64,000 nt of DNA from the IMG/VR virus record IMGVR_UViG_3300031993_000003; one strand, given 5' to 3'. This stretch comes from a virus. The notes beneath the pieces were generated by a model. It searched no databases, was not told the DNA's origin, and saw only the letters and a list, made by a program, of their open reading frames with translations. Shown here in pieces: positions 6,232 to 42,990 of the stretch. The position numbers were made by a program, and so were the translations under genes. Position 1 is the first letter of the stretch; every line of letters begins with the position of its first letter.

Positions 6232-6233
6232 TA

Positions 6234-14426: not shown

Positions 14427-14474
14427 TTATAGACAACTATATAAACTTATAGATGAAATGGAATAAATATCTAT

Positions 14475-19116: not shown

Positions 19117-19174
19117 TGCGGCGGTAATTCAGTAGGTAGAATATCTGCCTTCCAAGCAGACTGTCGCCGGTTCG
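19117..19174 (+). pseudogene. tRNA-Gly(UCC) 5' portion (acceptor 5' strand through T-loop TTCGA), interrupted by an insertion element.
   Basis: GCGGCGG-TA-ATTC/GAAT D-arm; anticodon stem TCTGC/GCAGA with loop CTTCCAA; T-stem GCCGG; the sequence then leaves the tRNA fold after TTCGA. Confidence 0.55.
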
Positions 19175-21166
19175 ACCGTTGGCTGAAATCTACTCAAACT
19201 TACCAGCAGTAAGAATTGTGTGATTTCCCATGGCCTGCTTGAACAGGCCACTGCAACGGCATTTTTCCAGGCACCTCCTTACCTTCCACATGGGCAGGCT
19301 CTTTGGCTGGAAGTACCTGTATCCGCCATCCCCTGCCAGTTCAAGCAGGTTCCCCCTTAACACGGTCGAGGTAACGCGGAATTTTATGTTTACCGAACTG
19401 TTGCGGTCTGCATTGTCCTGATGGTGGCATTCCACACAGTCGAAAGTTTCCTGGTCAGGGCGGTTACGGTCGTCTATCGCGCCGCATACCGGGCACATCT
19501 TGGAAGTATATTCCGGGTGTATCAGCGAAAGCGATTCGCCGTACTTCGGGGCGATGTGCTCGACCTCGTCCTTCAGAGATGAAAGTCCTATCCGGAGATG
19601 CAGACGGCCCAGGTTCATACCGTTCCTATCCGTCGAATCCAGCCGCCTTCCCTGGAACCCGGTCAGGTTCTCCATCACTATGTGACGGTAACCCCGCGAG
19701 TACAGGTCCTTGCACATGGCCGCTATGCGTCTTTTGTTTGACTCGTTCAGCTTCAAGGTAATGGCTTCAATGCGTTTCTTGTCCTTGTGAGAAATCTTGA
19801 ACGCATCATGTTCTTCGTCCTTAGCAAACCGGGCATTGTAGTTCTTCTGCTTCTGGTCTATTTTTAGCAGTTCGGTCTCCAGTTCCGCAACGAGTTCCTC
19901 GTCGTGTGGGATGAACTCCCCGGTGCTCAAAGCGAACATGTTGTGCTTGGAATTGACGTCTATGCCGACGGTATTTTCTTCTGTAATTTCATCGGTATTC
20001 TTGTAACGGTAACCGTCCCTTGCGAGGACTATATGGATGTCCTTTCCTCGGACAACCATCGTATAGGATGTATCTTCCCCGTTGCAGTAGCGGTTCAACG
20101 AGCGATGGTAGGCCTTGTTGTATTTGAATGGCATACACAAGGTATTCTTGCTATCACCACGGTATCCTTGGTCGAACCAATCCCATGAAAATTCGATGAA
20201 ATAGTCGAACTTTCCGGTTTCGTTACGCCTAGCATCTACGATAGGACGCTTGATACGGCTACGACCGGAAAATGTGAGCGATTCGAAGGTAATCTTGCCA
20301 CGCTTCTCGTATTCGGAGAATACAGATGTCCTTCTTGACAGCGCCAACCGCATGAGGCGGGCGAAGCCGAACTTGCGTATCTTGGCCAGTATCGTTCTAT
20401 AGAACTTCTGCTTGGATTCTACTGCGGTAGGAATAGCAGATTCAAGCCAATAAACGGTTTCTTCCTTGCCGTACCGAGCAAGCCAAGTAAGTACCTTCGT
20501 TAGTTCAGTCTTCTTGGTATGGCACTCTATGGACTTCAAGTCACCTTTCTTGTGTCCCTTGACATTTATCTTGTAGAACGAGGGAACAAGTTCCTCTACC
20601 TTGACGAACTCAATCTTCTTGCGGATTGCATCAAAGCGAAGCTGGTACGCTCGCCACACATCTTCAATAGCCTTCTTCAAGTAGTGGCTAGATAGGCGTG
20701 TATTGAATGTCGGGTTGAATAAATTGAACGCCTCGAACTTAGACATATCCTGGAAGCCGAGCATATCCGAGAAGAACACTTCCGATATGTCGTTCCTTAC
20801 TGCACGGATTTCCTCTGCTCGATGAATAATTTCGGCTCGCTTGGTGTCGGACAACAGGATAGGATAGAACGCGGCGGAGAACTGCGACTTGTACCTATCC
20901 TTCAATGTCCAACAATGATTGCTCATACAATACAGAAATGGCTCGTTAGGAACTTATTGTGAGATTCAATTCCAAACGAGCCATCATAAAGGTCTCTTAC
21001 GGAGCTTAATGAAGAATCTCACTAATTCATTAAACCTATATACATTAAGTTTATAACAATATACAAAATTTTATGCCGAATTTCAACTTAAAAATACACT
21101 AAATGCATGCAAATTTAGTTAGATTTAAGTAAGATTAGGCAGATTTTAAGTTAGCTGTGGGTAACC
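19175..21166 (-). mobile_element. TnpB-only (IS200/IS605-family, IS1341-like) insertion element of ~2 kb inserted in the T-loop of tRNA-Gly(UCC).
   Basis: tRNA 5' portion at 19117-19174 and the matching 3' portion (CCGGT-CCGCCGC) at 21167-21178; TnpB ORF between them; a TTAC tetranucleotide at the element end next to the 3' tRNA piece (minus strand). Confidence 0.5.
19190..20926 (-). CDS. tnpB: TnpB-like RuvC nuclease (578 aa) with a C-terminal zinc finger.
   Basis: RuvC-I …VGIDVNSKHN…, RuvC-II …HIVMENLTGF…, CPVCG…CVECHH zinc finger plus RuvC-III DNADRNSSVNI. Confidence 0.65.
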   Translation of the reverse strand: MSNHCWTLKDRYKSQFSAAFYPILLSDTKRAEIIHRAEEIRAVRNDISEVFFSDMLGFQDMSKFEAFNLFNPTFNTRLSSHYLKKAIEDVWRAYQLRFDAIRKKIEFVKVEELVPSFYKINVKGHKKGDLKSIECHTKKTELTKVLTWLARYGKEETVYWLESAIPTAVESKQKFYRTILAKIRKFGFARLMRLALSRRTSVFSEYEKRGKITFESLTFSGRSRIKRPIVDARRNETGKFDYFIEFSWDWFDQGYRGDSKNTLCMPFKYNKAYHRSLNRYCNGEDTSYTMVVRGKDIHIVLARDGYRYKNTDEITEENTVGIDVNSKHNMFALSTGEFIPHDEELVAELETELLKIDQKQKNYNARFAKDEEHDAFKISHKDKKRIEAITLKLNESNKRRIAAMCKDLYSRGYRHIVMENLTGFQGRRLDSTDRNGMNLGRLHLRIGLSSLKDEVEHIAPKYGESLSLIHPEYTSKMCPVCGAIDDRNRPDQETFDCVECHHQDNADRNSSVNIKFRVTSTVLRGNLLELAGDGGYRYFQPKSLPMWKVRRCLEKCRCSGLFKQAMGNHTILTAGKFE

Positions 21167-21179
21167 CCGGTCCGCCGCT
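21167..21179 (+). pseudogene. tRNA-Gly(UCC) 3' portion (T-stem 3' strand CCGGT + acceptor 3' strand CCGCCGC + discriminator).
   Basis: CCGCCGC is the exact complement of the 5' acceptor strand GCGGCGG at 19117. Confidence 0.5.
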
Positions 21180-21452
21180 CTAATGTAAAGGAAATTTTAC
21201 AAGGAATTTCCGGCAAAACCCTTGAAATCGTCAAGCCACTTTGCTAAACTTAACCACAAAGGATAATGAAAATGCAAACTCTGCAATTAAATATCATCGC
21301 ATGTGAAGAACAGTTGGCCAACGCCGACCGATTTTTCGCGTATGCGTATGATAGCAAATTGCTAGAGTTGCACCGTTGATTTCCTTGTTTGATGTTTGAA
21401 GAGGACCCGGTTGCAACCATGCAGCCGGGTTCTTTTCTTATATCCGACATAT

Positions 21453-21528
21453 GGGCCTGTGGCAGAATGGAATTGCCCCTCCCCTGCAAGGAGTGTGTTT
21501 TTGTGGGTTCGAATCCCACCAGTGTCCA
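21453..21528 (+). tRNA. tRNA-Ala(UGC)-like, with G3:U wobble, an 8-nt 3' acceptor strand (bulged U), C33 and an unusually long T-rich variable loop.
   Basis: GGGCCTG-TG-GCAG…TTGC; anticodon stem CCTCC/GGAGT with loop CCTGCAA; T-arm GTGGG-TTCGAAT-CCCAC; 3' CAGTGTCC-A. Confidence 0.45.
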
Positions 21529-21587
21529 CTAACGGTAGCTCCCGGAGAGCTGCCGGCAGATTGACAGTCCGGAATGAATTTCTTTTT

Positions 21588-21660
21588 GGGCCATTAGCTC
21601 AATGGTAGAGCGCCTGTCCGGCAGACAGGAGGTTATCGGTTCGAGCCCGATATGTGTCCA
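21588..21660 (+). tRNA. tRNA-Ala(GGC), with G3:U, a bulged U in the 3' acceptor strand and C33.
   Basis: GGGCCAT-TA-GCTC-AATGGTA-GAGC-G-CCTGT-CCGGCAG-ACAGG-AGGTT-ATCGG-TTCGAGC-CCGAT-ATGTGTCC-A. Confidence 0.55.
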
Positions 21661-21670
21661 GTATATCTTT

Positions 21671-21742
21671 GGGTCATTAGTTCAATGGTAGAACTCCCGG
21701 TCCGCATCCGGGGGATACCGGTTCGACTCCGGTATGTATCCA
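21671..21742 (+). tRNA. tRNA-Ala(CGC), with G3:U, a bulged U in the 3' acceptor strand and C33.
   Basis: GGGTCAT-TA-GTTC-AATGGTA-GAAC-T-CCCGG-TCCGCAT-CCGGG-GGAT-ACCGG-TTCGACT-CCGGT-ATGTATCC-A. Confidence 0.55.
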
Positions 21743-21746
21743 CTAA

Positions 21747-21823
21747 GGTCACTTAGCTCAGCAGGATTTCAGAGCGCCGTGCTACGAACGCGGAGGCCGG
21801 GAGTTCGAACCTCTCAGTGACTA
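21747..21823 (+). tRNA. tRNA-Arg(ACG).
   Basis: GGTCACT…; anticodon stem CCGTG/CGCGG with loop CTACGAA; T-arm GGGAG-TTCGAAC-CTCTC; 3' AGTGACT-A. Confidence 0.65.
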
Positions 21824-21838
21824 CTAACAAACTAATTC

Positions 21839-21911
21839 GGTCCCTTCGGCCAGTGGTTGAAGCCATCGCACTTTCTATGCGAAGACCCCGGTTCGAATCC
21901 GGGAGGGACTA
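21839..21911 (+). tRNA. tRNA-Glu(UUC).
   Basis: GGTCCCT…; stem TCGCA/TGCGA with loop CTTTCTA; T-arm CCCGG-TTCGAAT-CCGGG; 3' AGGGACT-A. Confidence 0.6.
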
Positions 21912-21915
21912 CTAC

Positions 21916-21989
21916 GTTCGTCTAGCTCAATTGGTTAGAGCTTCTGTCTGATATGCAGAGGGTTGCACGTTCAAGTCGTGCGGCGAACA
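21916..21989 (+). tRNA. tRNA-Ile(GAU).
   Basis: GTTCGTC-TA-GCTC…GAGC; stem TCTGT/GCAGA with loop CTGATAT; T-arm GCACG-TTCAAGT-CGTGC; 3' GGCGAAC-A. Confidence 0.65.
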
Positions 21990-21994
21990 CTAAT

Positions 21995-22067
21995 GCCGCT
22001 GTAGCTCAGTTGGTAGAGCGGAAGCCTGAAGAGCTTCGCGTCGGACGTTCGAGCCGTCCCGGCGGCA
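21995..22067 (+). tRNA. tRNA-Phe(GAA).
   Basis: GCCGCTG-TA-GCTC-AGTTGGTA-GAGC; stem GAAGC/GCTTC with loop CTGAAGA; T-arm GGACG-TTCGAGC-CGTCC; 3' CGGCGGC-A. Confidence 0.7.
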
Positions 22068-22074
22068 CTAAATT

Positions 22075-22146
22075 GGGGCCATAGTATAGTGGTCAGTACT
22101 CCGGCTTGTCACGCCGGCAACGCGGGTCCGATTCCCGCTGGTCCCG
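22075..22146 (+). tRNA. tRNA-Asp(GUC) (discriminator G).
   Basis: GGGGCCA-TA-GTAT…GTAC; stem CCGGC/GCCGG with loop TTGTCAC; T-arm GCGGG-TCCGATT-CCCGC; 3' TGGTCCC-G. Confidence 0.65.
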
Positions 22147-22156
22147 CTAGATTTTT

Positions 22157-22240
22157 GGGTGTGCGCCGACGATGGCGAGTCGGGACGGTCTGTAAAACCG
22201 TTGCCTTCGGGCTTAGCTGGTTCGAATCCAGCTACACCCA
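22157..22240 (+). tRNA. tRNA-Tyr(GUA), type II (long variable arm).
   Basis: GGGTGTG…; D-stem CCGA/TCGG; anticodon stem ACGGT/ACCGT with loop CTGTAAA; variable arm GCC-TTCG-GGC; T-arm GCTGG-TTCGAAT-CCAGC; 3' TACACCC-A. Confidence 0.6.
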
Positions 22241-22244
22241 CTAT

Positions 22245-22317
22245 TCCACCCTAGTTCAACTGGTAGAACGCCCGGCCGTTAACCGGGAGGTTCCAGGGTC
22301 GTAGCCTGGGGGTGGAG
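22245..22317 (+). tRNA. tRNA-Asn(GUU), with C33 and an atypical T-loop GTCGTAG.
   Basis: TCCACCC-TA-GTTC…GAAC; stem CCCGG/CCGGG with loop CCGTTAA; 3' GGGTGGA-G. Confidence 0.5.
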
Positions 22318-22323
22318 CTAAAT

Positions 22324-22409
22324 GGGTGTTCTCTGGTGATGGTGAATCGGGGCTGGCTGTAACCCAGCTGCCTTAAACGGCTTAGGGCGTTCGAATCGCT
22401 CAACACCCA
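22324..22409 (+). tRNA. Second type-II tRNA with anticodon GUA (Tyr), sequence-divergent from the one at 22157.
   Basis: GGGTGTT…; anticodon stem GCTGG/CCAGC with loop CTGTAAC; variable arm GCC-TTAAAC-GGC; T-arm GGGCG-TTCGAAT-CGCTC; 3' AACACCC-A (perfect acceptor pairing). Confidence 0.55.
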
Positions 22410-22549
22410 CTAAAGGATATAATTTCTGTAGTGCAATATAAATTACCAGAGGACAGGTAACTGGCATTACTTGACTTGTCGTTCTAGTCTAACTCTGGTA
22501 ATTATCAATCTATATAAACTGCATATAGAACATTGCCAGATGTTTTATC

Positions 22550-23245
22550 ATGAATTACACTAAGATTTACGCAAGTATTGTCTTGCGAGCTCAGACTGAA
22601 CGAACTGAGCGGTTAGCCTTGAAGAAACAGGGCCAGTATTTCGAGAACCATCATATAATACCTCGTTGCTTAGGCGGTATCGACAATGCATCTAATATGG
22701 CGTTATTAACTGGGCGCGAACATTTTATATGTCATTGGTTGCTAGTTAAAATTTATAGGCCGAATACTGTTGAATATTCTAAAATGATTCTAGCGCTGTG
22801 GCGAATGCGCTCTGCCGGTCAAGACCATCATGGTCGATATATCAACGCTCGTACATACGAATATCTTCGTGAAGACTATGCCCATGCTATTGGTAAAATT
22901 ACGTCTGTGACTCAGCACGGTTCAAAAAATTCTCACTATGGCGCTAAATGGTACACGAATTCGTATGATGGGACTGTTATAATATCTAAAACTGCATTAG
23001 AGTTTCCTTGGGTGCTTGGTCGAAATTTATTTAAAGGGGAATCGGTTTGTCTACAAACTTCTAGACAGCATATGCGGTTGTATGCACAAAGGTTATGGAA
23101 TCAATTCCATTCCGGTGATTATACTTCATTAAGAGACTTTAAGCGAAGAGAACATATTTCTGGTGCTTTGGTGAGCCGATTATTTTTACATCATATTCCG
23201 TTATACAGTACATTAAATGCTAATGGTCGTAAAAAAGTATTGTAA
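22550..23245 (+). CDS. HNH homing endonuclease.
   Basis: HHIIPRCLGGIDNASNMALLTGREHFICH motif; located in an AT-rich island between tRNA genes. Confidence 0.7.
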   Translation: MNYTKIYASIVLRAQTERTERLALKKQGQYFENHHIIPRCLGGIDNASNMALLTGREHFICHWLLVKIYRPNTVEYSKMILALWRMRSAGQDHHGRYINARTYEYLREDYAHAIGKITSVTQHGSKNSHYGAKWYTNSYDGTVIISKTALEFPWVLGRNLFKGESVCLQTSRQHMRLYAQRLWNQFHSGDYTSLRDFKRREHISGALVSRLFLHHIPLYSTLNANGRKKVL

Positions 23246-23757
23246 ATTTTTAAAAATATTCGAGAAAAAGGTTGCAAAAATAAGAAAAAATATATAAACT
23301 GTATGAGATGAGTGAACGAACAAGTTATGCCCTTGCACGCAGAACCATCAAAGCATAACCGACCATATAACTAACATTCAGAGCCTTCGGCTACGACCTT
23401 AATTGGGGAAGTTGAAGGACAAGGTATGGAAGGGCCGAGATGCGGAGCCGCAAGTCTTCAGAAGCATGACCGCTGTAACTGCCGTCAAGACATAGAGATG
23501 CAAATGCAGTCCCCAAAACTCACGTGGAGGGGATAGAGGCCGTTGTAGTTCGGCCATCACGTACTTCGTTGCGTGACTAATCGCTTTCATGATTTTTCAT
23601 TGAAAGCGGAAACTATTACCAAATAAAGCACTAATTGATAAATTTGAGTAATATAACTTTCCTAGGGGCTATAATCTGGTGACAACACCTCCCCAGAAGG
23701 GGAGGGCTTATAAGTAGAACATTTTTCTTATGCATGTTTGACACGAAGCAAGATTTT

Positions 23758-23770
23758 TTGCTATATTTGT
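23758..23770 (+). promoter_or_regulatory. TTTGCTATATTTG promoter 13-mer upstream of the second tRNA cluster.
   Basis: Exact motif. Confidence 0.55.
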
Positions 23771-23833
23771 CTTCGAAAAGGGAAATCCCCCGAGATTTCC
23801 GAGCAGATTTACATTTCGGATGCAATTATTCAA

Positions 23834-23907
23834 CGTGACCTACGCCAAATGGAGAGCGGCAGGTAGAGAGTGCCTGTGGTATGCCGGTTCAACTCCGGCT
23901 GTCACGT
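23834..23907 (+). tRNA. tRNA-like gene with a good acceptor stem (6 bp) and T-arm (GCCGG-TTCAACT-CCGGC) but a non-canonical anticodon arm (9-nt loop TAGAGAGTG, or a 7-nt loop lacking U33); identity unassigned.
   Basis: CGTGACC-TA…; 3' TGTCACG; standard 74-nt length; the anticodon region does not fold canonically. Confidence 0.3.
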
Positions 23908-24017
23908 TTATTAAACCCTTGATACCGGTGTCGGCCGGCGGCTTATTTCCATGGCCGCGCCTCCTAAACGGTTGTTGTGTTCTCTAGGCTGGCACCGGTA
24001 TAGGGGTGGAGTTTTAT

Positions 24018-24091
24018 CGCGGGTTGGAGCAGTTGGTAGCTCGCCAGGCCCATAACCTGGAGGCCGCGGCGTTCGAGTCCCGCACCCGCTA
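24018..24091 (+). tRNA. tRNA-Met(CAU), with a C1·U72 mismatch (initiator-like?), C33 and an imperfect T-stem.
   Basis: CGCGGGT-TG-GAGC-AGTTGGTA-GCTC-G-CCAGG-CCCATAA-CCTGG…TTCGAGT…ACCCGC. Confidence 0.45.
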
Positions 24092-24293
24092 GAAATTCCC
24101 TAAACATCTCCCGGTGACAAGCCGGGGGCACCCGGCGCCCGGACCGGGGACAACCGGGCAAACCTTTGACGTAGCCAGCGCATATCTATGGATATGCCTG
24201 GTTGCGGACGTGCTTGCGTGGTATGTACCGGCCTTGTGCTGGCGGCAACACCGTGGTATCTCCCTAGTGTGTCCGGGAGGTACCTAAAATTTA

Positions 24294-24368
24294 GCCCCGG
24301 TAGCTCAATTGGATGAGAGTACTACCCTCCGAAGGTAGTGGTTACCGGTTCAAGCCCGGTCTGGGGTA
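24294..24368 (+). tRNA. tRNA-Arg(CCG).
   Basis: GCCCCGG-TA-GCTC…; stem CTACC/GGTAG with loop CTCCGAA; T-arm ACCGG-TTCAAGC-CCGGT; 3' CTGGGGT-A. Confidence 0.6.
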
Positions 24369-24501
24369 CGAGAAATTTCCCTGGTGTAGCCACCGGGGTT
24401 TCCGGAGTAAGGACCGCGATATCTCCGGTAGAAAGCGCAAAGTTATTCGGGGGCGCTCTAAAGGCCGTGACTGGGTTAACACGGCTGACCCGTGCGGTTT
24501 C

Positions 24502-24576
24502 CGGAGTGTAGCTCAGCCTGGTAGAGCATCGGTTTTGGGAACCGAGGGTTCGCGTGTTCGAATCACGCTACTCCGA
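24502..24576 (+). tRNA. tRNA-Pro(UGG).
   Basis: CGGAGTG-TA-GCTC-AGCCTGGTA-GAGC-A-TCGGT-TTTGGGA-ACCGA…GCGTG-TTCGAAT-CACGC-TACTCCG-A. Confidence 0.65.
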
Positions 24577-24890
24577 CTAAATCCCCGACACACAAGGGGT
24601 CATTCCCCGTCGTGTGCGCCCCTACCTGGCATGCCGACATTCCGGTAGGTTCAAATTGCGAGGATAAGGGTGGACCTCGCCGGGGAGACCATTGAAATAC
24701 CCATGCACCGGGAAATCTACGGCCGTGGAATCCTCCCTTGGAGGGAGGACGGTGAAGCGGCAAGGGGCCCGTTCCTACAGTTAACATCATTGATGTCTAC
24801 GATAGGTTGCCACCGGTAGTCCCGGTAGGTGGTGGCGTAAAACGGTCGAAGGAGGCAGTTCAAGGCGTCCCCGGGCACCGAGTTTAAGTT

Positions 24891-25257
24891 GGACCGATAA
24901 CTCAATGGTTAGAGTTGCGGACTCATATATGTGCATATATGCATAAAAGCTATATGCGACTTGTGACCTCCCGGGGAAACCCTGGAGTGAAAACGGGAAG
25001 AATTCGGCGAAACCTAACCTGCCCTAGCCATAGGACCGAAAGGTTACTAGACCGGCAGTATGGTGACGCCGAGCCGAGCCCCGGGTACACCCGGGGAAGG
25101 TGTAGAGACTAGTGGAGGAGTCCAGTCTCCTTAATGACCACAACAGCATCCCGCATCTAAACCGGAAACGGCACGATGAAGACATAGTCCCGGGTAGTAT
25201 GAAAATATTACTTTATAAGGAACCCGTCGGTTGCAGGTTCGAATCCTGCTCGGTCCA
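24891..25257 (+). tRNA. tRNA-Met/Ile2(CAU) interrupted by a ~294-nt intron in the anticodon loop (exon 1 24891-24926, exon 2 25221-25257).
   Basis: 5' GGACCGA and 3' TCGGTCC are perfectly complementary 367 nt apart; D-arm ACTC/GAGT; the loop would be CTCAT|AA after splicing; T-arm GCAGG-TTCGAAT-CCTGC. Confidence 0.55.
24927..25220 (+). other. Putative group I intron (no ORF) in the tRNA anticodon loop.
   Basis: Inserted after U36 (exon 1 ends with U); the intron ends in G; GC-rich paired elements (CCCGGGG…CCCCGGG). The size and position are typical of bacterial or phage tRNA group I introns. Confidence 0.4.
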
Positions 25258-25277
25258 CTATTTAGTTTGAAAGTTTT

Positions 25278-25354
25278 GTCCTCGTCGCCTAATTGGAATG
25301 GCACCTCTCTCCTAAAGAGGTTTTTAAATGCAGGTTCGAGTCCTGCCGGGGATA
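25278..25354 (+). tRNA. tRNA-Arg(CCU), with a 9-nt T/A-rich variable loop.
   Basis: GTCCTCG…; stem CCTCT/AGAGG with loop CTCCTAA; T-arm GCAGG-TTCGAGT-CCTGC; 3' CGGGGAT-A. Confidence 0.55.
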
Positions 25355-26227
25355 CTATCCGGTGGGTGAAATTTTACTACGAAGCAAGGTAAGTAATTCT
25401 TCAATTTTGTTGGGGCGATAGCAATCCTTAAAATGTAGCTCAATAACTTCCCAGCCTTGCGATACTAAATAATCATGTCGTTCTTGATAATATGGCTTCA
25501 GTTGACCACCATAGTAATGTTGATTTCCGTTGACTTCAATGTCTAACTTTATATCAATAAAGGCTATGTCTAATGAATATGCATGTGACCACGATGCATC
25601 AGTATATTCACTTTCAAACTTGAATTTGTTGTCGGCCAATATCGTTTTCAGTGTTTCACATGGTGGAGATACAAACTTATCCGTGGATTTCCAGTTACAC
25701 TTCTCTGGATGTTCTTTAGCAAACTGGCGTTTAACTTCGGCTAGATGCGCCCTTTCCTCATTAGTCCATTTATGAGGGCCATGCGGTTTCTTTGTACATA
25801 ACTTATAATGGTCACGTTTCTTTCCGGTGTATTTCTCATTACAATATGGACATACACTATCTCGGTTCTTGGACTTGATAGTGTCTGGATGTTCCGCATG
25901 CCTATGTGCATATAGTTTGTTTTTTGACATGAAGATGCTATCGCAGAATGGACATTTCCACCCTTCTGGTCTGGCGAGTCGTTCACTGTGGAAATTGCAG
26001 TAATTATGTTTTATCTGCACTCTATTCGGATTAGAATGGCATGACTGTTCATGAAGCTTTAGTGTTCCTGGACGTTTGCATATCTTTCCACAATATTGAC
26101 AGTGGTATTCACCGGAGTCTGGCATTGTGTTGATTCGGTTTTGATTACATGGGCAGTGTTTTTCATGCACCATGCATGCTGATTTTACTGGTATTTCTTT
26201 TGAACAATATTTGCATTTCATACACAA
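25355..26227 (-). CDS. Homing-endonuclease-like protein: three C2H2-type zinc fingers plus a C-terminal DUF559/Vsr-like (PD-(D/E)xK) endonuclease domain.
   Basis: C..C…H..H repeats (CQYCGKICKRPGTLKLHEQSCH; CPFCDS…HRHAEH; CPYCNEKY…); C-terminus …LDIAFIDIKLDIEVNGNQHY…QERHDYLVSQGWEVIELHF; AT-rich island abutting the tRNA-Arg 3' end. Confidence 0.55.
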   Translation of the reverse strand: MCMKCKYCSKEIPVKSACMVHEKHCPCNQNRINTMPDSGEYHCQYCGKICKRPGTLKLHEQSCHSNPNRVQIKHNYCNFHSERLARPEGWKCPFCDSIFMSKNKLYAHRHAEHPDTIKSKNRDSVCPYCNEKYTGKKRDHYKLCTKKPHGPHKWTNEERAHLAEVKRQFAKEHPEKCNWKSTDKFVSPPCETLKTILADNKFKFESEYTDASWSHAYSLDIAFIDIKLDIEVNGNQHYYGGQLKPYYQERHDYLVSQGWEVIELHFKDCYRPNKIEELLTLLRSKISPTG

Positions 26228-26432
26228 TAGTTTATATCCGCTTTAGCTAACGGATGATGCTAACTCTGTGTTCTGTACCACTTTATTTATGCTATTAAAA
26301 GCTAGCCTCTCCGCAATAGACTCCCGGAAGTACAACGGGATGTTCGATAAGGTGGTCCTTTGCGATACATGTGGAGCAACTTACGGAATCACGGCAGGGA
26401 GTCTGAGACTCACCGTATCCGTAAGCCATCGG

Positions 26433-26457
26433 GCCGGTCCGATTCCGGCGGGAGGCA
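26433..26457 (+). other. Orphan tRNA-like 3' end (T-arm GCCGG-TCCGATT-CCGGC + acceptor 3' strand GGGAGGC-A); a complementary 5' strand GCCTCTC lies 150 nt upstream (26305), but no canonical tRNA body was found.
   Basis: A strong T-arm consensus; the intervening 26312-26432 does not fold as a D-arm or anticodon arm. Confidence 0.25.
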
Positions 26458-26601
26458 CTAAGACCGCGAACCTGCGCCGAAGCTCTTTGAGGCTGGTTTT
26501 CTCGTGGGAGGCGATATCGCCCTAGGACAGGTACAGGACTGCATGTAATGGCCGGGGTAGCTCCACGGAAAGATGCAAGCCGTAGGGGGAACAATGCTAT
26601 C

Positions 26602-26688
26602 TGGAGGGCTACGCTAATTGGTAAGCGACCACGGTGCTAACGTGGCGTCCCGGAAACGGGGCTTACAGGTTCGAACCCTGTGCCCTCC
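26602..26688 (+). tRNA. tRNA-Ser(GCU), type II.
   Basis: GGAGGGC-TA-CGCT…AGCG; stem CCACG/CGTGG with loop GTGCTAA; variable arm CCCG-GAAA-CGGG; T-arm ACAGG-TTCGAAC-CCTGT; 3' GCCCTCC (perfect). Confidence 0.65.
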
Positions 26689-26719
26689 TCTATATAAACC
26701 ACATATTCGGAGAAACATT

Positions 26720-27013
26720 ATGGACTTGTCGTCGTTCGCAATATGGAAGTTTAGGTACGTCGAGGGATACCTCGAGGGAATGCAGTCATATGACGTGGAG
26801 ACGACCAAGTACGTGAACCCGAAGACGTTCATGACTACCTGGATAAGGTACGACATGAAGAACGAGACGGCCAGCATCGAGGAGTTCGATAGGCCTCCCG
26901 TAGTCTGCAAGTTTGCCGAACTGGAGGCCACCCTGAAGAAGCTGGGTATGTACCGGGAGCGCCCGGTGACTGCCAGGCACATGCTGGCGGGGCCCCAGGA
27001 GAAGGAAGATTAA
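26720..27013 (+). CDS. Small hypothetical protein.
   Basis: The ORF track's start at 26618 lies inside tRNA-Ser; the first plausible ATG is at 26720 (MDLSSFAIWKF…). Confidence 0.45.
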   Translation: MDLSSFAIWKFRYVEGYLEGMQSYDVETTKYVNPKTFMTTWIRYDMKNETASIEEFDRPPVVCKFAELEATLKKLGMYRERPVTARHMLAGPQEKED

Positions 27014-27031
27014 AGCATAAGCACTGACCCG

Positions 27032-27157
27032 ATAGGTGTCTGCGCGGGTTGCGAACTGCGCAGGTGCCGACAAGGAGGTTCCTTCGGGCCCGGCGTTAAG
27101 CCGGTGCAAAAGTGCTTCCGGTGTCGCAACGCCGGAGGTCCCGGTTCGATTCCGGCG
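27032..27157 (+). other. 126-nt GC-rich tRNA-like element with a canonical 3' T-arm (CCGG-TTCGATT-CCGG) and 6-7-bp pairing between its 5' end (GCGCGGG) and 3' end (CCGCGC-A); the internal hairpins are too long for a standard tRNA.
   Basis: U8-like TT after the 5' acceptor strand; multiple CCGG-stem hairpins inside; it could be an unusual or intron-bearing tRNA, or a tRNA-like ncRNA. Confidence 0.25.
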
Positions 27158-27680
27158 GTGCCGCGCATTTTTTATTTGAGTTTGCCGCGAGGGTGGACGT
27201 CATCCCGGAGCGCGGCAGGGTGCTTCCCGATTAAGCACAGCCGAGTAGGCCTACTGGCGAAAGGAAATCGGAAAAACGCTACCCCGGGTTGGGCGAAAGA
27301 CATAAGTCCGACGCAAGGTAGTTAGTTTGGCAATGCGATGCTATGTGGGAAAACTGCCCGTCATTGCCCCCTGATAGGCTTGCTACGCCGGCAAGCGAGC
27401 GCTAAATCAACGCACGGGGCGAAGTTTCTAACAGGTTGACCCACGTCCATTTCGAGGCGTTCCAACATTCGGGTTTCCGGATGGGAGAAACCACCCGTCA
27501 ATTCGGGCAAACTTCTAAAGCTGGCGTTTCTAGAGCGCATCGTAGCTCCCCGCGTTGGTAGCGGCGACACCGGGTTAAAATCCGTGAGCCGGCGTGCAGA
27601 CTGTGCGCCCCATGAACGAGCGGCATAATCGTAGGTGTATGACAGGTTTCCGGTCCTGGGGAGATTTAAAACCGGTTTAT

Positions 27681-27753
27681 GGCCACGTCGAATAACGGTT
27701 CAGTTCGCCGCCCTCTCAAGGCGGAAATTCGGGTTCGAGTCCCGGCGCGGCTA
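27681..27753 (+). tRNA. tRNA-Glu(CUC).
   Basis: GGCCACG-TC-GAAT…GTTC; stem CCGCC/GGCGG with loop CTCTCAA; T-arm TCGGG-TTCGAGT-CCCGG; 3' CGCGGCT-A (one A·C mismatch). Confidence 0.5.
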
Positions 27754-27757
27754 CTAA

Positions 27758-28261
27758 ATGTCAAAGCTGATTCTCATGATAGGAATCCCCGGTTGCGGCA
27801 AGTCGACCTGGGCGACCCGGTATGCACAGGAGCATCCCGGGTGTTTCGTCGTGTCCAGCGACGGAATCAGGCGGGAACTGTACGGTACGGAGGAATTCGA
27901 CCCTGACCCGGCGGTGAACATGAGAGTGTTCGCCATGGTTCGCGCCAGGGTTTCTTCCGGTATCATCAAGGGAGATGTCATAGTGGACGCGACGAACGTC
28001 CATGTGCGCGACTGGAGGCAGTACATAGAACTGTGCCCGGGAGGTACGGACTGCAGAGCCGTGCTGCTCGACGTGGGACCGGACGAGGCGATGCGCCGCC
28101 AGGAGGGACGCGAGAGAAAGGTGCCGAGGGAGGTGCTGGAGAGGATGTGGGAGACCATCGGGAGCAACCGGGGGAGAATCCCGGAGTTCTTCGGGAGATG
28201 GCTCGTAATCGGCGAAGATGGAATAGTTTCGGAGATGACACGAGAAGAGGGACGACAATGA
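27758..28261 (+). CDS. pnk: Polynucleotide 5'-kinase (T4 Pnk kinase-domain-like, P-loop).
   Basis: MSKLILMIGIPGCGKSTWA…HPGCFVVSSDGIRRE versus T4 Pnk MKKIILTIGCPGSGKSTWA…NPGFYNINRDDYRQ; 167 aa, kinase domain only. Confidence 0.7.
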   Translation: MSKLILMIGIPGCGKSTWATRYAQEHPGCFVVSSDGIRRELYGTEEFDPDPAVNMRVFAMVRARVSSGIIKGDVIVDATNVHVRDWRQYIELCPGGTDCRAVLLDVGPDEAMRRQEGRERKVPREVLERMWETIGSNRGRIPEFFGRWLVIGEDGIVSEMTREEGRQ

Positions 28262-28425
28262 AAGTTAGAGAATGGTTAGCCAGCTTGACTAAAGAACAGC
28301 TTGACAGCTATGCGCTGCTCGGGTTCGGGTTCTGGCCGCGGCTTCTCATGAAGATGACTGAAGAGGATAGCTTCAGGATAGGCTGTAAGAGCCGATACGA
28401 CTTTGCGAAGAATATGACGAGATGA
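28259..28425 (+). CDS. Small hypothetical protein.
   Basis: ATGA overlap with pnk. Confidence 0.35.
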
Positions 28426-28444
28426 AAAGAGAAGAGGTACAACA

Positions 28445-28639
28445 ATGAGCGCATGGAAGAAAACTGCCGAGGAGCTTCCCGAGAATGACGAGCCGGTGGC
28501 AATCCGCCCAAGTTTCCATGGGCGACAGTTCGCCGTATGGAACCGGAAGTGCGACTGTTGGGACGACGAGACTGGCGACGACTACATGTGCGACCGTGAC
28601 GCGGTCGAGGAATGGTACCCTATTCCATGGAACGAATAA
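28445..28639 (+). CDS. Small hypothetical protein.
   Basis: 64-aa ORF. Confidence 0.4.
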   Translation: MSAWKKTAEELPENDEPVAIRPSFHGRQFAVWNRKCDCWDDETGDDYMCDRDAVEEWYPIPWNE

Positions 28640-28649
28640 CAGGAGCGAA

Positions 28650-28833
28650 CATGAAGAAGCACGAGGATATCCCGGAAGAGACCGAGGAACAGAAGAGGGA
28701 GCGCTGGGAGAAGTCCCAGAAGAAGGCGAGGTCGTTCGCGAGGCAGTGCGGCGTGGACCTGAAGAAGATTACCAGGGAGCGCCGGAAGATTGCCATGGAG
28801 CATGCCAGGGGTTCCGAGAAGTACGACTACTGA
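28650..28833 (+). CDS. Small basic hypothetical protein.
   Basis: ORF starting MKKHEDIPEE…. Confidence 0.4.
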
Positions 28834-28842
28834 TTTTAAGGA

Positions 28843-28932
28843 GGTGTGGCCGAGAGGTTGATGGCTGCCGATTTGAAATCGGCCGAGGGCTGATGAGGTC
28901 CTCCGTGGGTTCGAATCCTACCACCTCTTCTA
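28843..28932 (+). tRNA. tRNA-Ser(UGA), type II.
   Basis: GGAGGTG-TG-GCC…GGC; stem GCCGA/TCGGC with loop TTTGAAA; variable arm GAGG…CCTC; T-arm GTGGG-TTCGAAT-CCTAC; 3' CACCTCT. Confidence 0.6.
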
Positions 28933-28983
28933 AAGATTGTATCCGAACAAAATCACGTCAAGCGGGTCGCCACGGCGGCCCGC

Positions 28984-28997
28984 TTTTGCTATATTTG
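28984..28997 (+). promoter_or_regulatory. Terminator hairpin (GCGGGTCGCCACGGCGGCCCGC) fused to the TTTTGCTATATTTG promoter.
   Basis: Exact motif; the ATG at 29003 is 6 nt downstream. Confidence 0.55.
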
Positions 28998-39127: not shown

Positions 39128-39650
39128 CTATAACGCAGTTGTCCGCATGGCCGCCGGTGTCGGGCTCAGGCTCGGCAACCACGAGGGCCGCCCGGTGTTC
39201 GTCTACGGGAAGCCAGGGGGATTCGGTATGGAGTTCGCCTGCCAGTGGCTGACCGAGGACGGCAAGTACGACCCGCAGCAGGTACGGACACAACTCCAGG
39301 CGATGCTGGGCTCGGCCAAGCTGGACGAGAAGGTGTACGACTTCCTTCACGTGCAGTCGAACGTGGACAGGATTACCAAGGCGTGCAAGGACTTCGGTAT
39401 GGTCTACGACAGCTCCACCGGCAGCTTCTACTACGTGAAGAAGGGCAAGGCCGTATTCGGAGTGGACCATGACTATATAGCCAGCCTGGTATGCACCGGC
39501 AAGGCATCGATGGATAAGCTGAAGGAACTGCTGGAGACGTTCCTGGAGACTGCCGAGTTCGAGGCGGAGTGCTCCCGGGTGGCATCCGGGGAGGACCTGC
39601 TTGAAGTCCGGGCGAAGCCAAAGAGGAAATCAAATGGAAAGAAGAAGTAA
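39111..39650 (+). CDS. Hypothetical protein.
   Basis: 179 aa. Confidence 0.45.
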   Translation: MPQEIDYNAVVRMAAGVGLRLGNHEGRPVFVYGKPGGFGMEFACQWLTEDGKYDPQQVRTQLQAMLGSAKLDEKVYDFLHVQSNVDRITKACKDFGMVYDSSTGSFYYVKKGKAVFGVDHDYIASLVCTGKASMDKLKELLETFLETAEFEAECSRVASGEDLLEVRAKPKRKSNGKKK

Positions 39651-42985: not shown

Positions 42986-42990
42986 GGCTA

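What the first reader, a model, noticed from the sequence alone, without database searches (positions are those of the whole stretch)
21400..28950. Large tRNA array embedded in a phage-like genome, co-located with a tRNA end-healing and maturation toolkit
At least 18 tRNA genes, none with an encoded CCA, are clustered in 7.5 kb: Ala×3, Arg×3, Glu×2, Tyr×2, Met×2, Ser×2, Ile, Phe, Asp, Asn and Pro, plus fragments of a Gly gene. The same window encodes a T4-Pnk-like 5'-kinase (27758-28261, immediately 3' of tRNA-Glu), a separate HAD 3'-phosphatase-like protein (39634-40098), a CCA-adding enzyme (35274-36554) and NAD-ligase LigA (16057-18168). In T4, Pnk plus a ligase reseal host-cleaved tRNA anticodon loops. 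Here the kinase and phosphatase appear to be split into two genes, and no RNA ligase (Rnl) is visible in the window. This may be a counter-defence module against anticodon nucleases, with CCA-less tRNAs that depend on the phage's own CCA enzyme.
Basis: partly seen in the sequence, partly recalled or inferred. Interest (0 to 1): 0.8.

Follow-up and report, generated by a model that had tools for sequence, protein, structure and literature searches.

The report
Megaphage tRNA island with maturation genes
This is a real cluster of about twenty tRNA genes in a very large phage that probably infects Bacteroidota, with an RNA 5'-kinase and a CCA-adding enzyme alongside and several mobile elements and odd tRNA-like RNAs inserted in it; the layout is a known one for giant phages, and the proposed tRNA-repair module is incomplete.

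Summary
ARAGORN finds 19 tRNA-shaped genes on the + strand at 21453-28930. Eighteen look canonical and none encodes CCA. A 20th, tRNA(CAU) at 24891-25258, is split by a 294-nt group I intron. The "Gly fragments" are a tRNA-Gly(UCC) cut in its T-loop by a 1,989-bp TnpB element.

The kinase (27758-28261) is a Pnk-type 5'-kinase domain with every catalytic residue. It appears to be co-transcribed with the tRNAs. The order tRNA-Glu(CUC), kinase, tRNA-Ser(UGA) is kept in five related loci; the longest relative contigs are 260-455 kb. The CCA-enzyme and LigA calls are confirmed.

The repair-module reading is only partly supported:
- No RNA ligase was found among the ~65 window ORFs searched.
- LigA is a DNA ligase.
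- The HAD protein, 11 kb away, is a generic BT0820-family phosphatase.
- CCA-less genes with C74 and a non-C at 75 are the Bacteroidota norm (189/190 control tRNAs), so they do not imply dependence on the phage enzyme.
- The anticodons match the phage's own codon bias.

Also in the array: two homing endonuclease genes, three conserved tRNA-like RNAs, and about 3 kb of conserved non-coding spacer. Overall this is a new member of a known kind.

The parts
19118..19176 (+). 5' part of tRNA-Gly(UCC), cut in the T-loop
   Evidence: Aligns to the intact tRNA-Gly at L034 4007-4080 up to GGTTCGAC. Rfam tRNA hit at 19118-19168, 35 bits.
19177..21165 (-). TnpB-only IS200/IS605-type element (ORF 19190-20926) inserted in tRNA-Gly
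   Evidence: Pfam Cas12f1-like_TNB 1.7e-13. NCBIfam guided_TnpB 4e-25. Absent from the same site in L034.
21166..21179 (+). 3' part of tRNA-Gly(UCC)
   Evidence: CCCGGTCCGCCGCT followed by CTA; matches the L034 tRNA-Gly 3' end.
21453..22410 (+). Tight block of 11 tRNAs: Ala(UGC), Ala(GGC), Ala(CGC), Arg(ACG), Glu(UUC), Ile(GAU), Phe, Asp, Tyr, Asn, Tyr
   Evidence: ARAGORN. Rfam tRNA at 33-64 bits; the first Tyr scores as tRNA-Sec and the second Tyr gives no Rfam hit. The three Ala tRNAs keep G3:U70 only if one 3'-strand nucleotide is bulged. A C4-G69 to U4-A69 change supports this register, and the L034 Ala(GGC) has no bulge.
22550..23245 (+). Free-standing HNH homing endonuclease gene (GC3 0.32)
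   Evidence: phrog_655 homing endonuclease 2e-37. HNH motif in the translation. 37% identical to a homolog in the L037 array. The block 22328-23687 is absent from L033 and L034.
23759..23767 (+). Phage promoter motif TGCTATATT(TG), likely start of the second tRNA transcription unit
   Evidence: 17 exact copies in the window, nearly all intergenic; no shuffle reaches the observed count.
23833..23908 (+). T1, a tRNA-like RNA that ARAGORN calls 'Ser AGA'
   Evidence: No Rfam tRNA hit. G33 and no long variable arm. The loop is GAGA in the window and L033 and GUGA in L034, i.e. GNRA-like; an L001 tRNA-Ala-like gene has a similar GCGA loop but its homology to T1 is not established. The cloverleaf is kept in L033 and L034 with 3 compensatory pairs.
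24017..24092 (+). tRNA-Met(CAU), initiator-like, with C33
   Evidence: ARAGORN. Rfam 47 bits. Loop CCCAUAA.
24294..24369 (+). tRNA-Arg(CCG)
24502..24577 (+). tRNA-Pro(UGG)
24581..24688 (+). Non-coding block 97% identical to L034 (flanks are about 85%)
   Evidence: blastn. No codon periodicity. Fold z -2.6. No Rfam match.
24891..25258 (+). tRNA(CAU), Met or Ile2 type, split by an intron
   Evidence: ARAGORN -i. Exons are 24891-24927 and 25222-25258. Intronless alleles at L033 4995-5070 and L034 8153-8228.
24928..25221 (+). Group I intron inserted between anticodon nt 36 and nt 37
   Evidence: Rfam RF00028 44.6 bits (GA 50), E 2.5e-10, full-length model match with the conserved core GAUGAAGACAUAGUCC. 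Fold z -5.4. The 5' exon ends in U and the intron ends in G.
25278..25355 (+). tRNA-Arg(CCU)
25355..26227 (-). Free-standing zinc-finger plus DUF559/Vsr-like homing endonuclease gene (GC3 0.35)
   Evidence: Pfam zf-Di19, RAP and DUF559. PHROG endonuclease and homing endonuclease families. 25% identical to the L034 406-aa zf-C2H2+DUF559 protein. The block 25264-26718 has no match in L033 or L034.
26305..26460 (+). E5, a tRNA-like RNA: acceptor GCCUCUC/GGGAGGC, T-arm with loop UCCGAUU, then A-CUA, with about 110 nt of internal hairpins
   Evidence: MFE fold. Shares CGAUAAGGUGGUCCUU and the T-arm with E1 of L033. Weak full-length match to model R1 (8 bits).
26603..26690 (+). tRNA-Ser(GCU)
   Evidence: Scores as tRNA-Sec at 30 bits, as long-arm tRNAs do.
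26720..27013 (+). Conserved 97-aa ORF of unknown function inside the array
   Evidence: GC3 0.73-0.8. Homologs in L033, L034 and L037, and next to the CCA gene in L004 and L005. No Pfam or PHROG family.
27014..27172 (+). E1, a tRNA-like RNA of about 150 nt
   Evidence: RNAalifold with L033, L034 and L036 gives 47 pairs, 9 with compensatory changes. The closing helix 27021-27026/27156-27161 stacks on the T-arm CCGG-UUCGAUU-CCGG. The loop before the T-arm, U-CGC-AA or G-UGC-AA, resembles a shortened tRNA-Ala anticodon loop. No Rfam family.
27173..27680 (+). Conserved non-coding spacer with no detected structure
   Evidence: 83-95% identical to L033, L034 and L036. Fold z about 0. No codon periodicity.
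27681..27754 (+). tRNA-Glu(CUC)
   Evidence: It lies immediately upstream of the kinase here and in L034, L036 and L037; L033 and L001 have 1-3.6 kb between them but the same gene order.
27758..28261 (+). Stand-alone Pnk-type polynucleotide 5'-kinase (167 aa)
   Evidence: Pfam AAA_33 7e-24. phrog_505 polynucleotide kinase, profile positions 1-145 of 295. PDB T4 Pnk kinase domain 1ly1 E 9e-9, CthPnkp and Pnkp1 kinase domains. NCBIfam bacter_Pnkp. Family invariants G9, G14, K15, S16, D35, R38, D77, T79, R118, R120.
28258..28833 (+). Three small ORFs (28258-28425, 28445-28639, 28651-28833) between the kinase and tRNA-Ser
   Evidence: Translations. Homologs called in L033, L034 and L036. No family hits.
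28840..28930 (+). tRNA-Ser(UGA)
28960..28987 (+). Terminator-like hairpin plus U-run closing the tRNA/kinase unit, followed by the next TGCTATATT promoter
   Evidence: Read from the sequence.
35274..36554 (+). Class II tRNA nucleotidyltransferase (CCA-adding type)
   Evidence: PolyA_pol head 4e-25. NF009814 CCA tRNA nucleotidyltransferase 194 bits, below its cutoff of 290. phrog_2244 6e-40. Motifs GGCVRD, DVD, RRD and EDALR are present in the translation.
39634..40098 (+). Capless HAD phosphatase, BT0820 family
   Evidence: DFDGT motif. PDB 2obb 5e-9. NF046079 59 bits, below its cutoff of 165. Invariant D20, D22, T24, K114, D122, D123. Model pLDDT 87. Foldseek results.

Best explanation
The region is the tRNA island of a very large phage. 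The longest contigs carrying close kinase homologs are 431 and 455 kb, and the host is probably a rumen or gut Bacteroidota.

Transcription (inferred). The island appears to be transcribed rightward from phage promoters of the form TTTTGCTATATTTG, as long precursors. The second unit seems to run from about 23770 to the terminator-like hairpin at about 28985. It would carry tRNAs, tRNA-like RNAs, spacers, the kinase and three small ORFs together.

Processing (inferred from established pathways). Host RNase P and 3' processing enzymes would release the tRNAs. Because the genes template C74 but not C75, each tRNA would then need its 3' end completed by a CCA-adding enzyme. The host must have one, and the phage adds its own copy, probably to raise capacity or to repair ends.

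Main role (most likely, inferred). The tRNAs would supply decoders for the phage's own strongly G/C-ending codon usage, and keep translation going if host tRNAs become limiting or are attacked.

The kinase (shown and inferred). It is shown to be a catalytically intact polynucleotide 5'-kinase domain. What it acts on is inferred: most likely it phosphorylates 5'-OH RNA ends, either preparing broken tRNAs for a ligase encoded elsewhere or marking RNA for decay.

Mobile DNA (shown). The island is also a landing pad for selfish elements. It holds a group I intron in tRNA(CAU), two free-standing homing endonuclease genes and a TnpB element that has split tRNA-Gly.
For: Array and synteny:
- tRNAs.
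- Synteny of array, kinase, tRNA-Ser, CCA and HAD in L001, L033, L034, L036 and L037.

Transcription:
- Promoter motif: 17 exact copies; no shuffle out of 100 reaches the observed number of matches.
- Terminator-like hairpin and next promoter at 28960-28995.

Host assignment:
- The motif fits the Bacteroidota TAnnTTTG -7 element (my knowledge).
- HAD homologs are named in Flavobacteriia and other Bacteroidota.
- A Fib_succ_major domain is present.
- The tRNA 3' ends follow the Bacteroidota pattern. Control: 190 tRNAs from 120 mostly Bacteroidota loci have C74 in 189 and CCA in only 12. The phage clade has CTA at positions 74-76 in 59 of 95 tRNAs.

Codon match:
- AGG is 35% and CGG 21% of Arg codons, GAG 70% of Glu, AUA 29% of Ile, GCC 43% and GCG 25% of Ala.
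- The island carries tRNAs with anticodons CCU, CCG, CUC, CAU, GGC and CGC.

Enzymes:
- Kinase catalytic residues.
- CCA enzyme motifs.

Mobile elements, each absent from at least one relative.

Precedent: jumbo and huge phages commonly combine tRNAs, CCA-adding enzyme, PNK, and HAD or calcineurin-type phosphatases (PMC7824862, PMC7162821).
Against: - Host identity and host codon usage are not known, so codon compensation is inferred from the phage side only.
- tRNAs for several heavily used codons (AAG, CAG, CUG, GUG, ACC) are not in this window.
- No expression or processing data exist.
- The kinase substrate is untested.
- Promoters and the terminator are motif-level calls only.
- About 3 kb of conserved spacer and three tRNA-like RNAs are not explained by this account.
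Confidence: 0.65

Rival explanations
1. First reader's view. The kinase, the HAD phosphatase, a ligase and the CCA enzyme form a dedicated counter-defence pathway. It heals and reseals tRNAs cut by host anticodon nucleases, as T4 Pnkp and Rnl1 do against PrrC.
For: - The kinase is closest to the T4 Pnk, CthPnkp and Pnkp1 kinase domains and keeps all catalytic residues.
- It is embedded in the tRNA unit in every relative examined.
- Relatives L034 and L037 carry a calcineurin-type Metallophos gene near the kinase, which recalls the kinase-phosphoesterase pairing of bacterial Pnkp.
- L037 also has PTH2 and a tmRNA.
- Jumbo-phage PNKs usually travel with ATP-grasp RNA ligases, and stand-alone HAD phosphatases are known in such systems (PMC7824862).
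Against: - No RNA ligase domain was found in the window.
- LigA is a DNA ligase.
- The window lacks the Metallophos gene.
- The HAD protein is distant from the kinase, is in the BT0820 family, and is no closer to T4 Pnkp phosphatase than to HisB-N or a sugar phosphatase.
- Only 64 kb of a genome that may exceed 400 kb is visible, so a ligase cannot be ruled in or out.
Confidence: 0.25
2. The tRNAs themselves are the counter-defence. They are replacement or nuclease-insensitive versions of host tRNAs targeted by tRNA-cleaving defence systems. The kinase and CCA enzyme are only general maturation helpers.
For: - Unusual anticodon loops: C33 in three Ala tRNAs, in Asn and in the initiator-like Met.
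- A bulged acceptor stem in the Ala tRNAs.
- Two diverged tRNA-Tyr copies with different variable arms, the second beside a homing endonuclease gene.
- Published precedent for phage tRNAs that escape tRNA-targeting defences through anticodon-loop changes (PMC10264068). Precedent also for tRNA-Tyr and tRNA-Lys rescue of defence systems (PMC11555353, PMC11464382, PMC13096335).
Against: - No host defence system is known for this phage.
- The C33 and bulge features could be neutral drift in lightly used genes.
- The anticodon set tracks phage codon usage, which fits plain codon supply equally well.
Confidence: 0.3
3. The kinase works in RNA turnover and not in repair. It would phosphorylate 5'-OH ends left by endonucleases so that 5'-monophosphate-dependent host RNases degrade host or early phage RNA. 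This activity has been reported for T4 PNK after RegB cleavage (my knowledge).
For: - The kinase is a stand-alone domain with no fused phosphatase and no ligase nearby.
- It is co-transcribed with long spacer RNAs that must be cleared after tRNA release.
Against: - No phage endoribonuclease that leaves 5'-OH ends was identified in the window.
- The strict linkage to tRNA genes across relatives favours a tRNA-related role.
Confidence: 0.12

Closest known systems
Phage T4 tRNA gene cluster together with T4 Pnkp and Rnl1
   Same: - A cluster of tRNA genes, some lacking CCA, transcribed as precursors.
- Extra small stable RNAs of unknown function within the cluster (T4 species 1 and 2; my knowledge).
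- A free-standing homing endonuclease inside the cluster (SegB, PMC2330249).
- A Pnk-type kinase with the same catalytic residues.
   Different: - T4 Pnkp is a fused kinase-HAD enzyme and works with Rnl1. Here the kinase stands alone and sits inside the tRNA unit, and no RNA ligase is visible.
- This island is larger and also carries an intron-split tRNA and a TnpB insertion.
tRNA and RNA-repair gene sets of jumbo and huge phages (Iyer et al. 2021, PMC7824862; Al-Shayeb et al. 2020, PMC7162821)
   Same: - Many tRNAs plus a CCA-adding enzyme, a polynucleotide kinase, and stand-alone HAD or calcineurin-type phosphatases.
- tmRNA in relatives.
- Very large genomes.
   Different: - Those surveys report that PNK generally co-occurs with Rnl1, Rnl2 or RtcB. 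That could not be checked here.
- This clade (about 56% GC, Bacteroidota-type promoters) has no close match in the INPHARED phage collection.
Bacterial group I introns in tRNA anticodon loops (Azoarcus tRNA-Ile(CAU), Agrobacterium tRNA-Arg(CCU), cyanobacterial tRNA-Leu and tRNA-fMet; my knowledge)
   Same: - Small ORF-less group I intron in the anticodon loop of a tRNA(CAU).
- The 5' exon ends in ...CAU, as in Azoarcus.
- Intronless alleles exist in close relatives.
   Different: - It is located in a phage tRNA gene.
- Its Rfam score is just below the gathering threshold.
- Self-splicing is untested.
Clostridium thermocellum-type Pnkp (kinase, metallophosphoesterase and ligase domains), which works with Hen1
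   Same: - The kinase domain is homologous.
- Relatives L034 and L037 have a metallophosphoesterase gene close by.
   Different: - The genes are separate and not one polypeptide.
- There is no ligase or Hen1.
- The window itself lacks the metallophosphoesterase.
IS200/IS605-family TnpB elements
   Same: TnpB with a RuvC/TNB domain and no transposase, inserted at a precise site that is empty in a relative.
   Different: - The target is the T-loop of a phage tRNA-Gly gene.
- The element lies antisense to the tRNA, so RNA-level removal is unlikely and the tRNA is probably inactivated.

Membership tests
Phage tRNA gene cluster | Many co-oriented tRNA genes with valid cloverleaves packed in a few kb of a phage genome | tested here: met
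   19 ARAGORN calls. 14 of them reach the Rfam gathering score and 17 have an Rfam hit with lax filters. Syntenic arrays occur in related phage contigs of up to 455 kb.
T4-type Pnkp | P-loop 5'-kinase domain with Lys15, Ser16, Asp35, Arg38 and Arg126 equivalents | tested here: met
   phmmer alignment to 1ly1 and 1ltq. K15, S16, D35, R38, R118 and R120 are invariant in 15 family members.
T4-type Pnkp | C-terminal DxDxT 3'-phosphatase domain fused to the kinase | tested here: not met
   The protein is 167 aa and matches only profile positions 1-145 of 295 in phrog_505. No HAD motif in the translation.
T4-type tRNA repair pathway | A partner RNA ligase (Rnl1, Rnl2 or RtcB) | tested here: inconclusive
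   None found among about 65 window ORFs. The window is only a small part of a genome that may exceed 400 kb.
Polynucleotide 3'-phosphatase (HAD, Pnkp type) | DxDxT catalytic motif and capless HAD fold | tested here: met
   D20, D22, T24, K114, D122 and D123 are invariant. Model pLDDT 87.
Polynucleotide 3'-phosphatase (HAD, Pnkp type) | Specific relationship to Pnkp phosphatase domains, beyond other small HADs | tested here: inconclusive
   Foldseek: BT0820 2.6e-7, HisB-N 1.4e-3, Pnkp1 8e-3, phage sugar phosphatase AfhF 1.2e-2, T4 Pnkp 1.5e-2. No T4 Pnkp hit by sequence at E<=1.
Class II CCA-adding enzyme | Pol-beta head domain with motifs A (GGxVRD..DxD), B (RRD) and D (EDxxR) | tested here: met
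   Motifs read in the translation. PF01743 4e-25. Best NCBIfam hit is CCA tRNA nucleotidyltransferase, above PcnB.
Class II CCA-adding enzyme | Adds CCA, as opposed to A only, CC only or poly(A) | not testable with these tools
   NCBIfam scores are below all equivalog cutoffs. An enzyme assay is needed.
NAD-dependent DNA ligase LigA | Adenylation, OB, HhH and BRCT domains | tested here: met
   Pfam. NF005932 525 bits against a cutoff of 369. This makes it a DNA replication or repair enzyme and not an RNA-repair component.
Group I intron in a tRNA anticodon loop | Match to the group I catalytic core | tested here: inconclusive
   RF00028 44.6 bits, below the gathering score of 50, but E 2.5e-10 and a full-length model match. 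Fold z -5.4.
Group I intron in a tRNA anticodon loop | Precise interruption of an otherwise intact tRNA, with intronless alleles; exon ends in U and intron ends in G | tested here: met
   ARAGORN -i. blastn break points at 24927 and 25221 against L033 and L034. Sequence inspection.
tmRNA, Y RNA-like (YrlA) or canonical class II tRNA, as identities for E1, E5 and T1 | Rfam covariance-model match; G3:U70 and a tag ORF for tmRNA; 5'/3' ends on the anticodon-side stem for YrlA; 7-nt anticodon loop with U33 for a tRNA | tested here: not met
   No Rfam hits. E1 has no G3:U70, and its ends close the acceptor-like helix. T1 has G33 and a GNRA-like loop.

The most novel reading that the evidence does not exclude
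The three non-canonical tRNA-like RNAs (T1 at 23833-23908, E5 at 26305-26460, E1 at 27014-27172) and the conserved spacers may be functional products and not decayed tRNA genes. They would form a family of phage tRNA mimics with an acceptor/T-arm end. They could be processed by RNase P and the CCA enzyme and serve as decoys or regulators for tRNA-binding host factors such as nucleases, synthetases or defence sensors. The embedded Pnk-type kinase could act on the same RNAs.
Probability: 0.2. Interest if true: 0.65.

Novelty: new member of a known kind. Interest (0 to 1): 0.4.

Why it matters
This locus documents a phage clade that has no close match in the INPHARED phage collection, with related contigs of up to 455 kb and a probable Bacteroidota host. 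Its tRNA island shows several processes side by side:
- tRNA supply matched to the phage's own codon usage.
- Phage-encoded 3'-end completion.
- A tRNA-linked RNA kinase.
- Heavy colonisation by an intron, homing endonucleases and a TnpB element.

The analysis corrects an appealing over-reading, since the "repair module" lacks a ligase. It also shows that CCA-less genes with C74 and a non-C at position 75 are simply the Bacteroidota convention.

The parts most worth further work are the tRNA-like RNAs with covariation support and the intron-split phage tRNA(CAU).

Tried and rejected
1. Hidden genes or an alternative genetic code in the 3.3 kb of spacers. No three-base GC periodicity anywhere in them, and no suppressor tRNA.
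2. Known RNA families in the spacers. Rfam at lax thresholds gives only tRNAs and the intron.
3. A second, ORF-containing group I intron around the HNH gene (22411-23700). An 'AAGACAUAG' string looked suggestive, but there is no Rfam match.
4. E1 as a tmRNA, YrlA or class II tRNA. These readings fail on G3:U70, on topology, and because L033 lacks the supposed anticodon arm.
5. The 'CTA' trailer as a phage-specific tag tied to the phage CCA enzyme. It is highly non-random in the clade (59/95). However, 189 of 190 control tRNAs from mostly Bacteroidota genomes also encode C74, with CTA, CAA and CGA the commonest trailers. Lak phage uses mostly CAA. It is therefore a host-phylum convention.
6. 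'tRNA-Ser(AGA)' as a decoder. Rejected.
7. A metallophosphoesterase partner in the window. Present in L034 and L037 but absent here.
8. More homologs of E1 and T1. Exact-pattern scans of IMG/VR and JGI metagenomes found none for E1. A scan for the leader upstream of T1 found one contig, L041, where the same motif precedes tRNA-Ala(UGC); it contains a TTGACA hexamer and may be a -35-like promoter element.
9. Spacer similarity to the more distant relative L001. None detectable.

Full report
**Observation.** ARAGORN finds 19 tRNA-shaped genes, all on the + strand, from 21453 to 28930.
- Rfam's tRNA model confirms 14 of them at gathering score; its 15th hit is the tRNA-Gly fragment at 19118-19168. 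With permissive filters 17 of the 19 have an Rfam hit, the long-arm Tyr(1) and Ser(GCU) scoring as tRNA-Sec.
- None has an encoded CCA.
- With introns allowed, ARAGORN adds a tRNA(CAU) at 24891-25258 interrupted after nt 36 by 294 nt.
- Rfam identifies the insert as a group I intron: 44.6 bits against a gathering score of 50, E 2.5e-10, full-length model match. It folds far better than shuffled sequence (z -5.4).

**Relatives.** The INPHARED phage collection holds no close relative; only individual tRNAs match.
- The CCA-enzyme protein retrieves an IMG/VR contig of 260 kb (L001, 47% identity) with the same gene order.
- The kinase protein retrieves much closer homologs. Their loci are L033, L034 (a 430,964-bp scaffold), L036 and L037. 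The longest contig on record for one of these homologs is 455 kb.
- All share the order LigA, tRNA array, tRNA-Glu(CUC), kinase, small ORFs, tRNA-Ser(UGA), Band_7, DUF2201-type protein, CCA enzyme, MoxR-type ATPase, HAD.

The window is therefore part of a very large phage genome.

**Host.** Seventeen exact copies of TGCTATATT, usually as TTTTGCTATATTTG, sit in intergenic positions; no shuffle reaches the observed number of matches.
- The motif fits the Bacteroidota TAnnTTTG promoter element (my knowledge).
- HAD homologs named in Flavobacteriia and other Bacteroidota, a Fib_succ_major domain and sample names that suggest rumen studies point the same way.

**Anatomy of the island.** Promoter motifs lie at 19100, just before tRNA-Gly, and at 23759. 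A strong hairpin plus U-run at 28960-28987 is followed by the next promoter motif. The kinase therefore appears to sit in one transcription unit with tRNAs. Its ATG starts 3 nt after the trailer of tRNA-Glu(CUC).

Comparison with L033 and L034 shows which pieces are insertions:
- (i) A 1,989-bp TnpB-only element (19177-21165, minus strand) splits tRNA-Gly(UCC) inside its T-loop. The gene is intact in L034.
- (ii) The block 22328-23687 holds a second tRNA-Tyr, an HNH homing endonuclease gene (phrog_655, 2e-37) and 440 nt of non-coding DNA.
- (iii) The intron is at exactly 24928-25221. L033 and L034 carry intronless alleles, and the spliced anticodon loop would be CUCAUAA, as in theirs.
- (iv) The block 25264-26718 has no match in either relative. 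It includes a minus-strand zinc-finger/DUF559 endonuclease gene and the unique segment 26228-26602.

The endonuclease and TnpB genes have GC3 of 0.3-0.6, against 0.75-0.85 for resident genes.

**Non-canonical RNAs.** About 3.3 kb of the island is neither tRNA nor ORF. It shows no codon periodicity. Several parts are more stable than shuffles (z -3.4 to -4.0). Most of it is 83-97% identical to the relatives. Three elements are tRNA-like.
- **T1 (23833-23908).** ARAGORN calls it Ser(AGA). It has no Rfam hit, has G33 and has no long variable arm. Its loop is GAGA in the window and L033 and GUGA in L034, i.e. GNRA-like. The cloverleaf is kept with three compensatory pairs. An L001 tRNA-Ala-like gene has a similar GCGA loop, but its homology to T1 is not established.
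- **E1 (27014-27172).** The consensus fold has 47 pairs, 9 with compensatory changes across four phages. An acceptor-like helix stacks on a canonical T-arm, and four or five internal hairpins follow. The loop before the T-arm (U-CGC-AA or G-UGC-AA) looks like a shortened tRNA-Ala anticodon loop.
- **E5 (26305-26460).** It has the same acceptor/T-arm end followed by A-CUA, and shares a 16-nt motif with the L033 copy of E1.

None matches tmRNA, YrlA or any other Rfam family. Their function is unknown. T4's tRNA cluster likewise encodes two stable RNAs of unknown function (my knowledge).

**The "toolkit".**
- *Kinase.* The 167-aa protein is AAA_33 (7e-24). It matches the kinase half of the phage polynucleotide-kinase family. 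Its best solved relatives are the T4 Pnk kinase domain (E 9e-9), Pnkp1 and CthPnkp. K15, S16, D35, R38, D77, T79, R118 and R120 are invariant in the family. It has no phosphatase domain.
- *HAD protein.* The protein at 39634-40098 has all HAD catalytic motifs. It belongs to the uncharacterised BT0820 family. A confident model (pLDDT 87) matches the T4 Pnkp phosphatase no better than HisB-N or a phage sugar-phosphate phosphatase. Its substrate is open.
- *CCA enzyme.* It has motifs A, B and D and scores best against CCA-adding models.
- *LigA.* It is a textbook NAD-dependent DNA ligase and should not be counted as an RNA-repair component.
- *Missing parts.* No RNA ligase domain was found in about 65 window ORFs. 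Relatives L034 and L037 carry a calcineurin-type phosphoesterase near the kinase, and L037 and L041 carry a tmRNA (L037 also PTH2). The window lacks the phosphoesterase.

**The CCA-less ends.** Most island tRNAs have the discriminator followed by CTA: 13-15 of 19 here, and 59 of 95 across the clade. This looked like a phage-specific signal, so I ran a control.
- 120 genome loci, mostly Bacteroidota, were fetched through the 16S 3' end, giving 190 spacer tRNAs.
- C74 is templated in 189 of them and CCA in only 12. CTA, CAA and CGA are the commonest trailers.
- A Prevotella Lak phage uses mostly CAA.
- Published work also reports that Bacteroidetes tRNA genes mostly do not template CCA (PMC5143459).

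The phage thus copies its host phylum's convention. The host must already own a CCA-adding enzyme, so the phage copy is an auxiliary and not a necessity.

**What the tRNAs are for.** Phage genes are strongly biased to G/C-ending codons. AGG is 35% and CGG 21% of Arg codons, GAG 70% of Glu, AUA 29% of Ile, and GCC plus GCG 68% of Ala.
- The island supplies tRNAs with anticodons CCU, CCG, CUC, CAU, GGC and CGC. This fits supply of the phage's own codon demand.
- Unusual features also leave room for the published idea that phage tRNAs replace or outlast host tRNAs attacked by defence nucleases (PMC10264068, PMC11555353, PMC11464382, PMC13096335). These features are C33 in five tRNAs, a bulged acceptor strand in the Ala tRNAs that still keeps G3:U70, and two diverged tRNA-Tyr genes.

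**Comparison and verdict.** tRNA islands combined with a CCA-adding enzyme, a polynucleotide kinase, and stand-alone HAD or calcineurin phosphatases are described for jumbo and huge phages (PMC7824862, PMC7162821). Homing endonucleases inside tRNA clusters are known from T4 (PMC2330249). This locus is a new member of that kind, from a clade absent from the reference phage collection. The counter-defence repair reading is possible but unproven, because the ligase is missing and the phosphatase assignment is generic.

The less ordinary items are the group I intron in a phage tRNA(CAU) at the Azoarcus-type site, the TnpB insertion in a tRNA T-loop, and the conserved tRNA-like RNAs.

Noticed in passing
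19118-21179: A TnpB-only element (578-aa TnpB, minus strand) sits inside the T-loop of tRNA-Gly(UCC). Its 3' end, where a guide RNA would be encoded, abuts the tRNA 5' half. The site is empty in L034.
   Followed up: yes
13450-15770 and 41675-43575: Two IS607-like units, each a serine recombinase plus TnpB. The first lies in a low-GC island (GC 0.44). The second is absent from the syntenic position in L001, and L034 has one at yet another site. That makes three TnpB genes in 64 kb.
   Followed up: partly
whole window, e.g. 6772, 13418, 16041, 19100, 23759, 28987, 37453, 47760: The motif TTTTGCTATATTTG occurs 17 times exactly, almost always just upstream of genes and often right after a terminator-like hairpin. 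It is probably the phage's main promoter type and resembles the Bacteroidota -7 element.
   Followed up: partly
21453-21741: The three tRNA-Ala genes need a bulged nucleotide in the 3' acceptor strand to keep G3:U70, and all have C33 instead of the near-universal U33. tRNA-Asn and the initiator-like tRNA-Met also have C33.
   Followed up: partly
24581-24688: A non-coding block 97% identical to L034, while flanking DNA is about 85% identical. It forms moderately stable hairpins and has no Rfam family.
   Followed up: partly
27167-27180; L033, L034 and L036 at the same site: The relatives have an intact TGCTATATT promoter directly after E1, followed by another tRNA-like module. The window has a 4-nt deletion in the motif and lacks that module. 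L034 carries both module types in tandem.
   Followed up: partly
27754-27760: The kinase start codon lies 3 nt after the CUA trailer of tRNA-Glu(CUC). tRNA 3' processing would therefore leave an almost leaderless kinase mRNA.
   Followed up: no
18542-18769 and 18826-19083: Two tandem paralogous small ORFs with identical N-termini over 29 residues (MDRILKSYSREEIAEMEPGKDRFYLAEDVE...).
   Followed up: no
33662-35269 and 37488-38678: A DUF2201_N-type (MoxR-partner-like) protein and a MoxR-type AAA_5 ATPase flank the CCA-enzyme gene in all relatives. The first protein has a segment of about 125 aa with no counterpart in L001, and L037 has an acidic low-complexity segment there.
   Followed up: no
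L037 4061-4423 and 757-1194; L041 7279-7638: More distant relatives carry a tmRNA (Rfam 101 bits, tag ADNAFAYSAAA) inside the tRNA array, and L037 also has a PTH2 peptidyl-tRNA hydrolase. L037 additionally has about 2 kb (4423-6499) with no gene or tRNA call.
   Followed up: partly
L039 1354-1623 and L040 1376-1607: The intron core resembles group I introns (86-96 bits) in a crAss-like phage and in the 735-kb huge phage. Neither lies in an ARAGORN-detectable tRNA. The second abuts a weak tmRNA-like hit.
   Followed up: partly
25-4755: A 1,576-aa ORF with strong coding signal (GC3 0.76) has no Pfam family.
   Followed up: no
51782-57556: Minus-strand block with a sigma-70-like factor (51782-52552), an FtsK/SpoIIIE-type ATPase (53312-54586) and an EcoRI-type adenine methyltransferase (56552-57556).
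   Followed up: no
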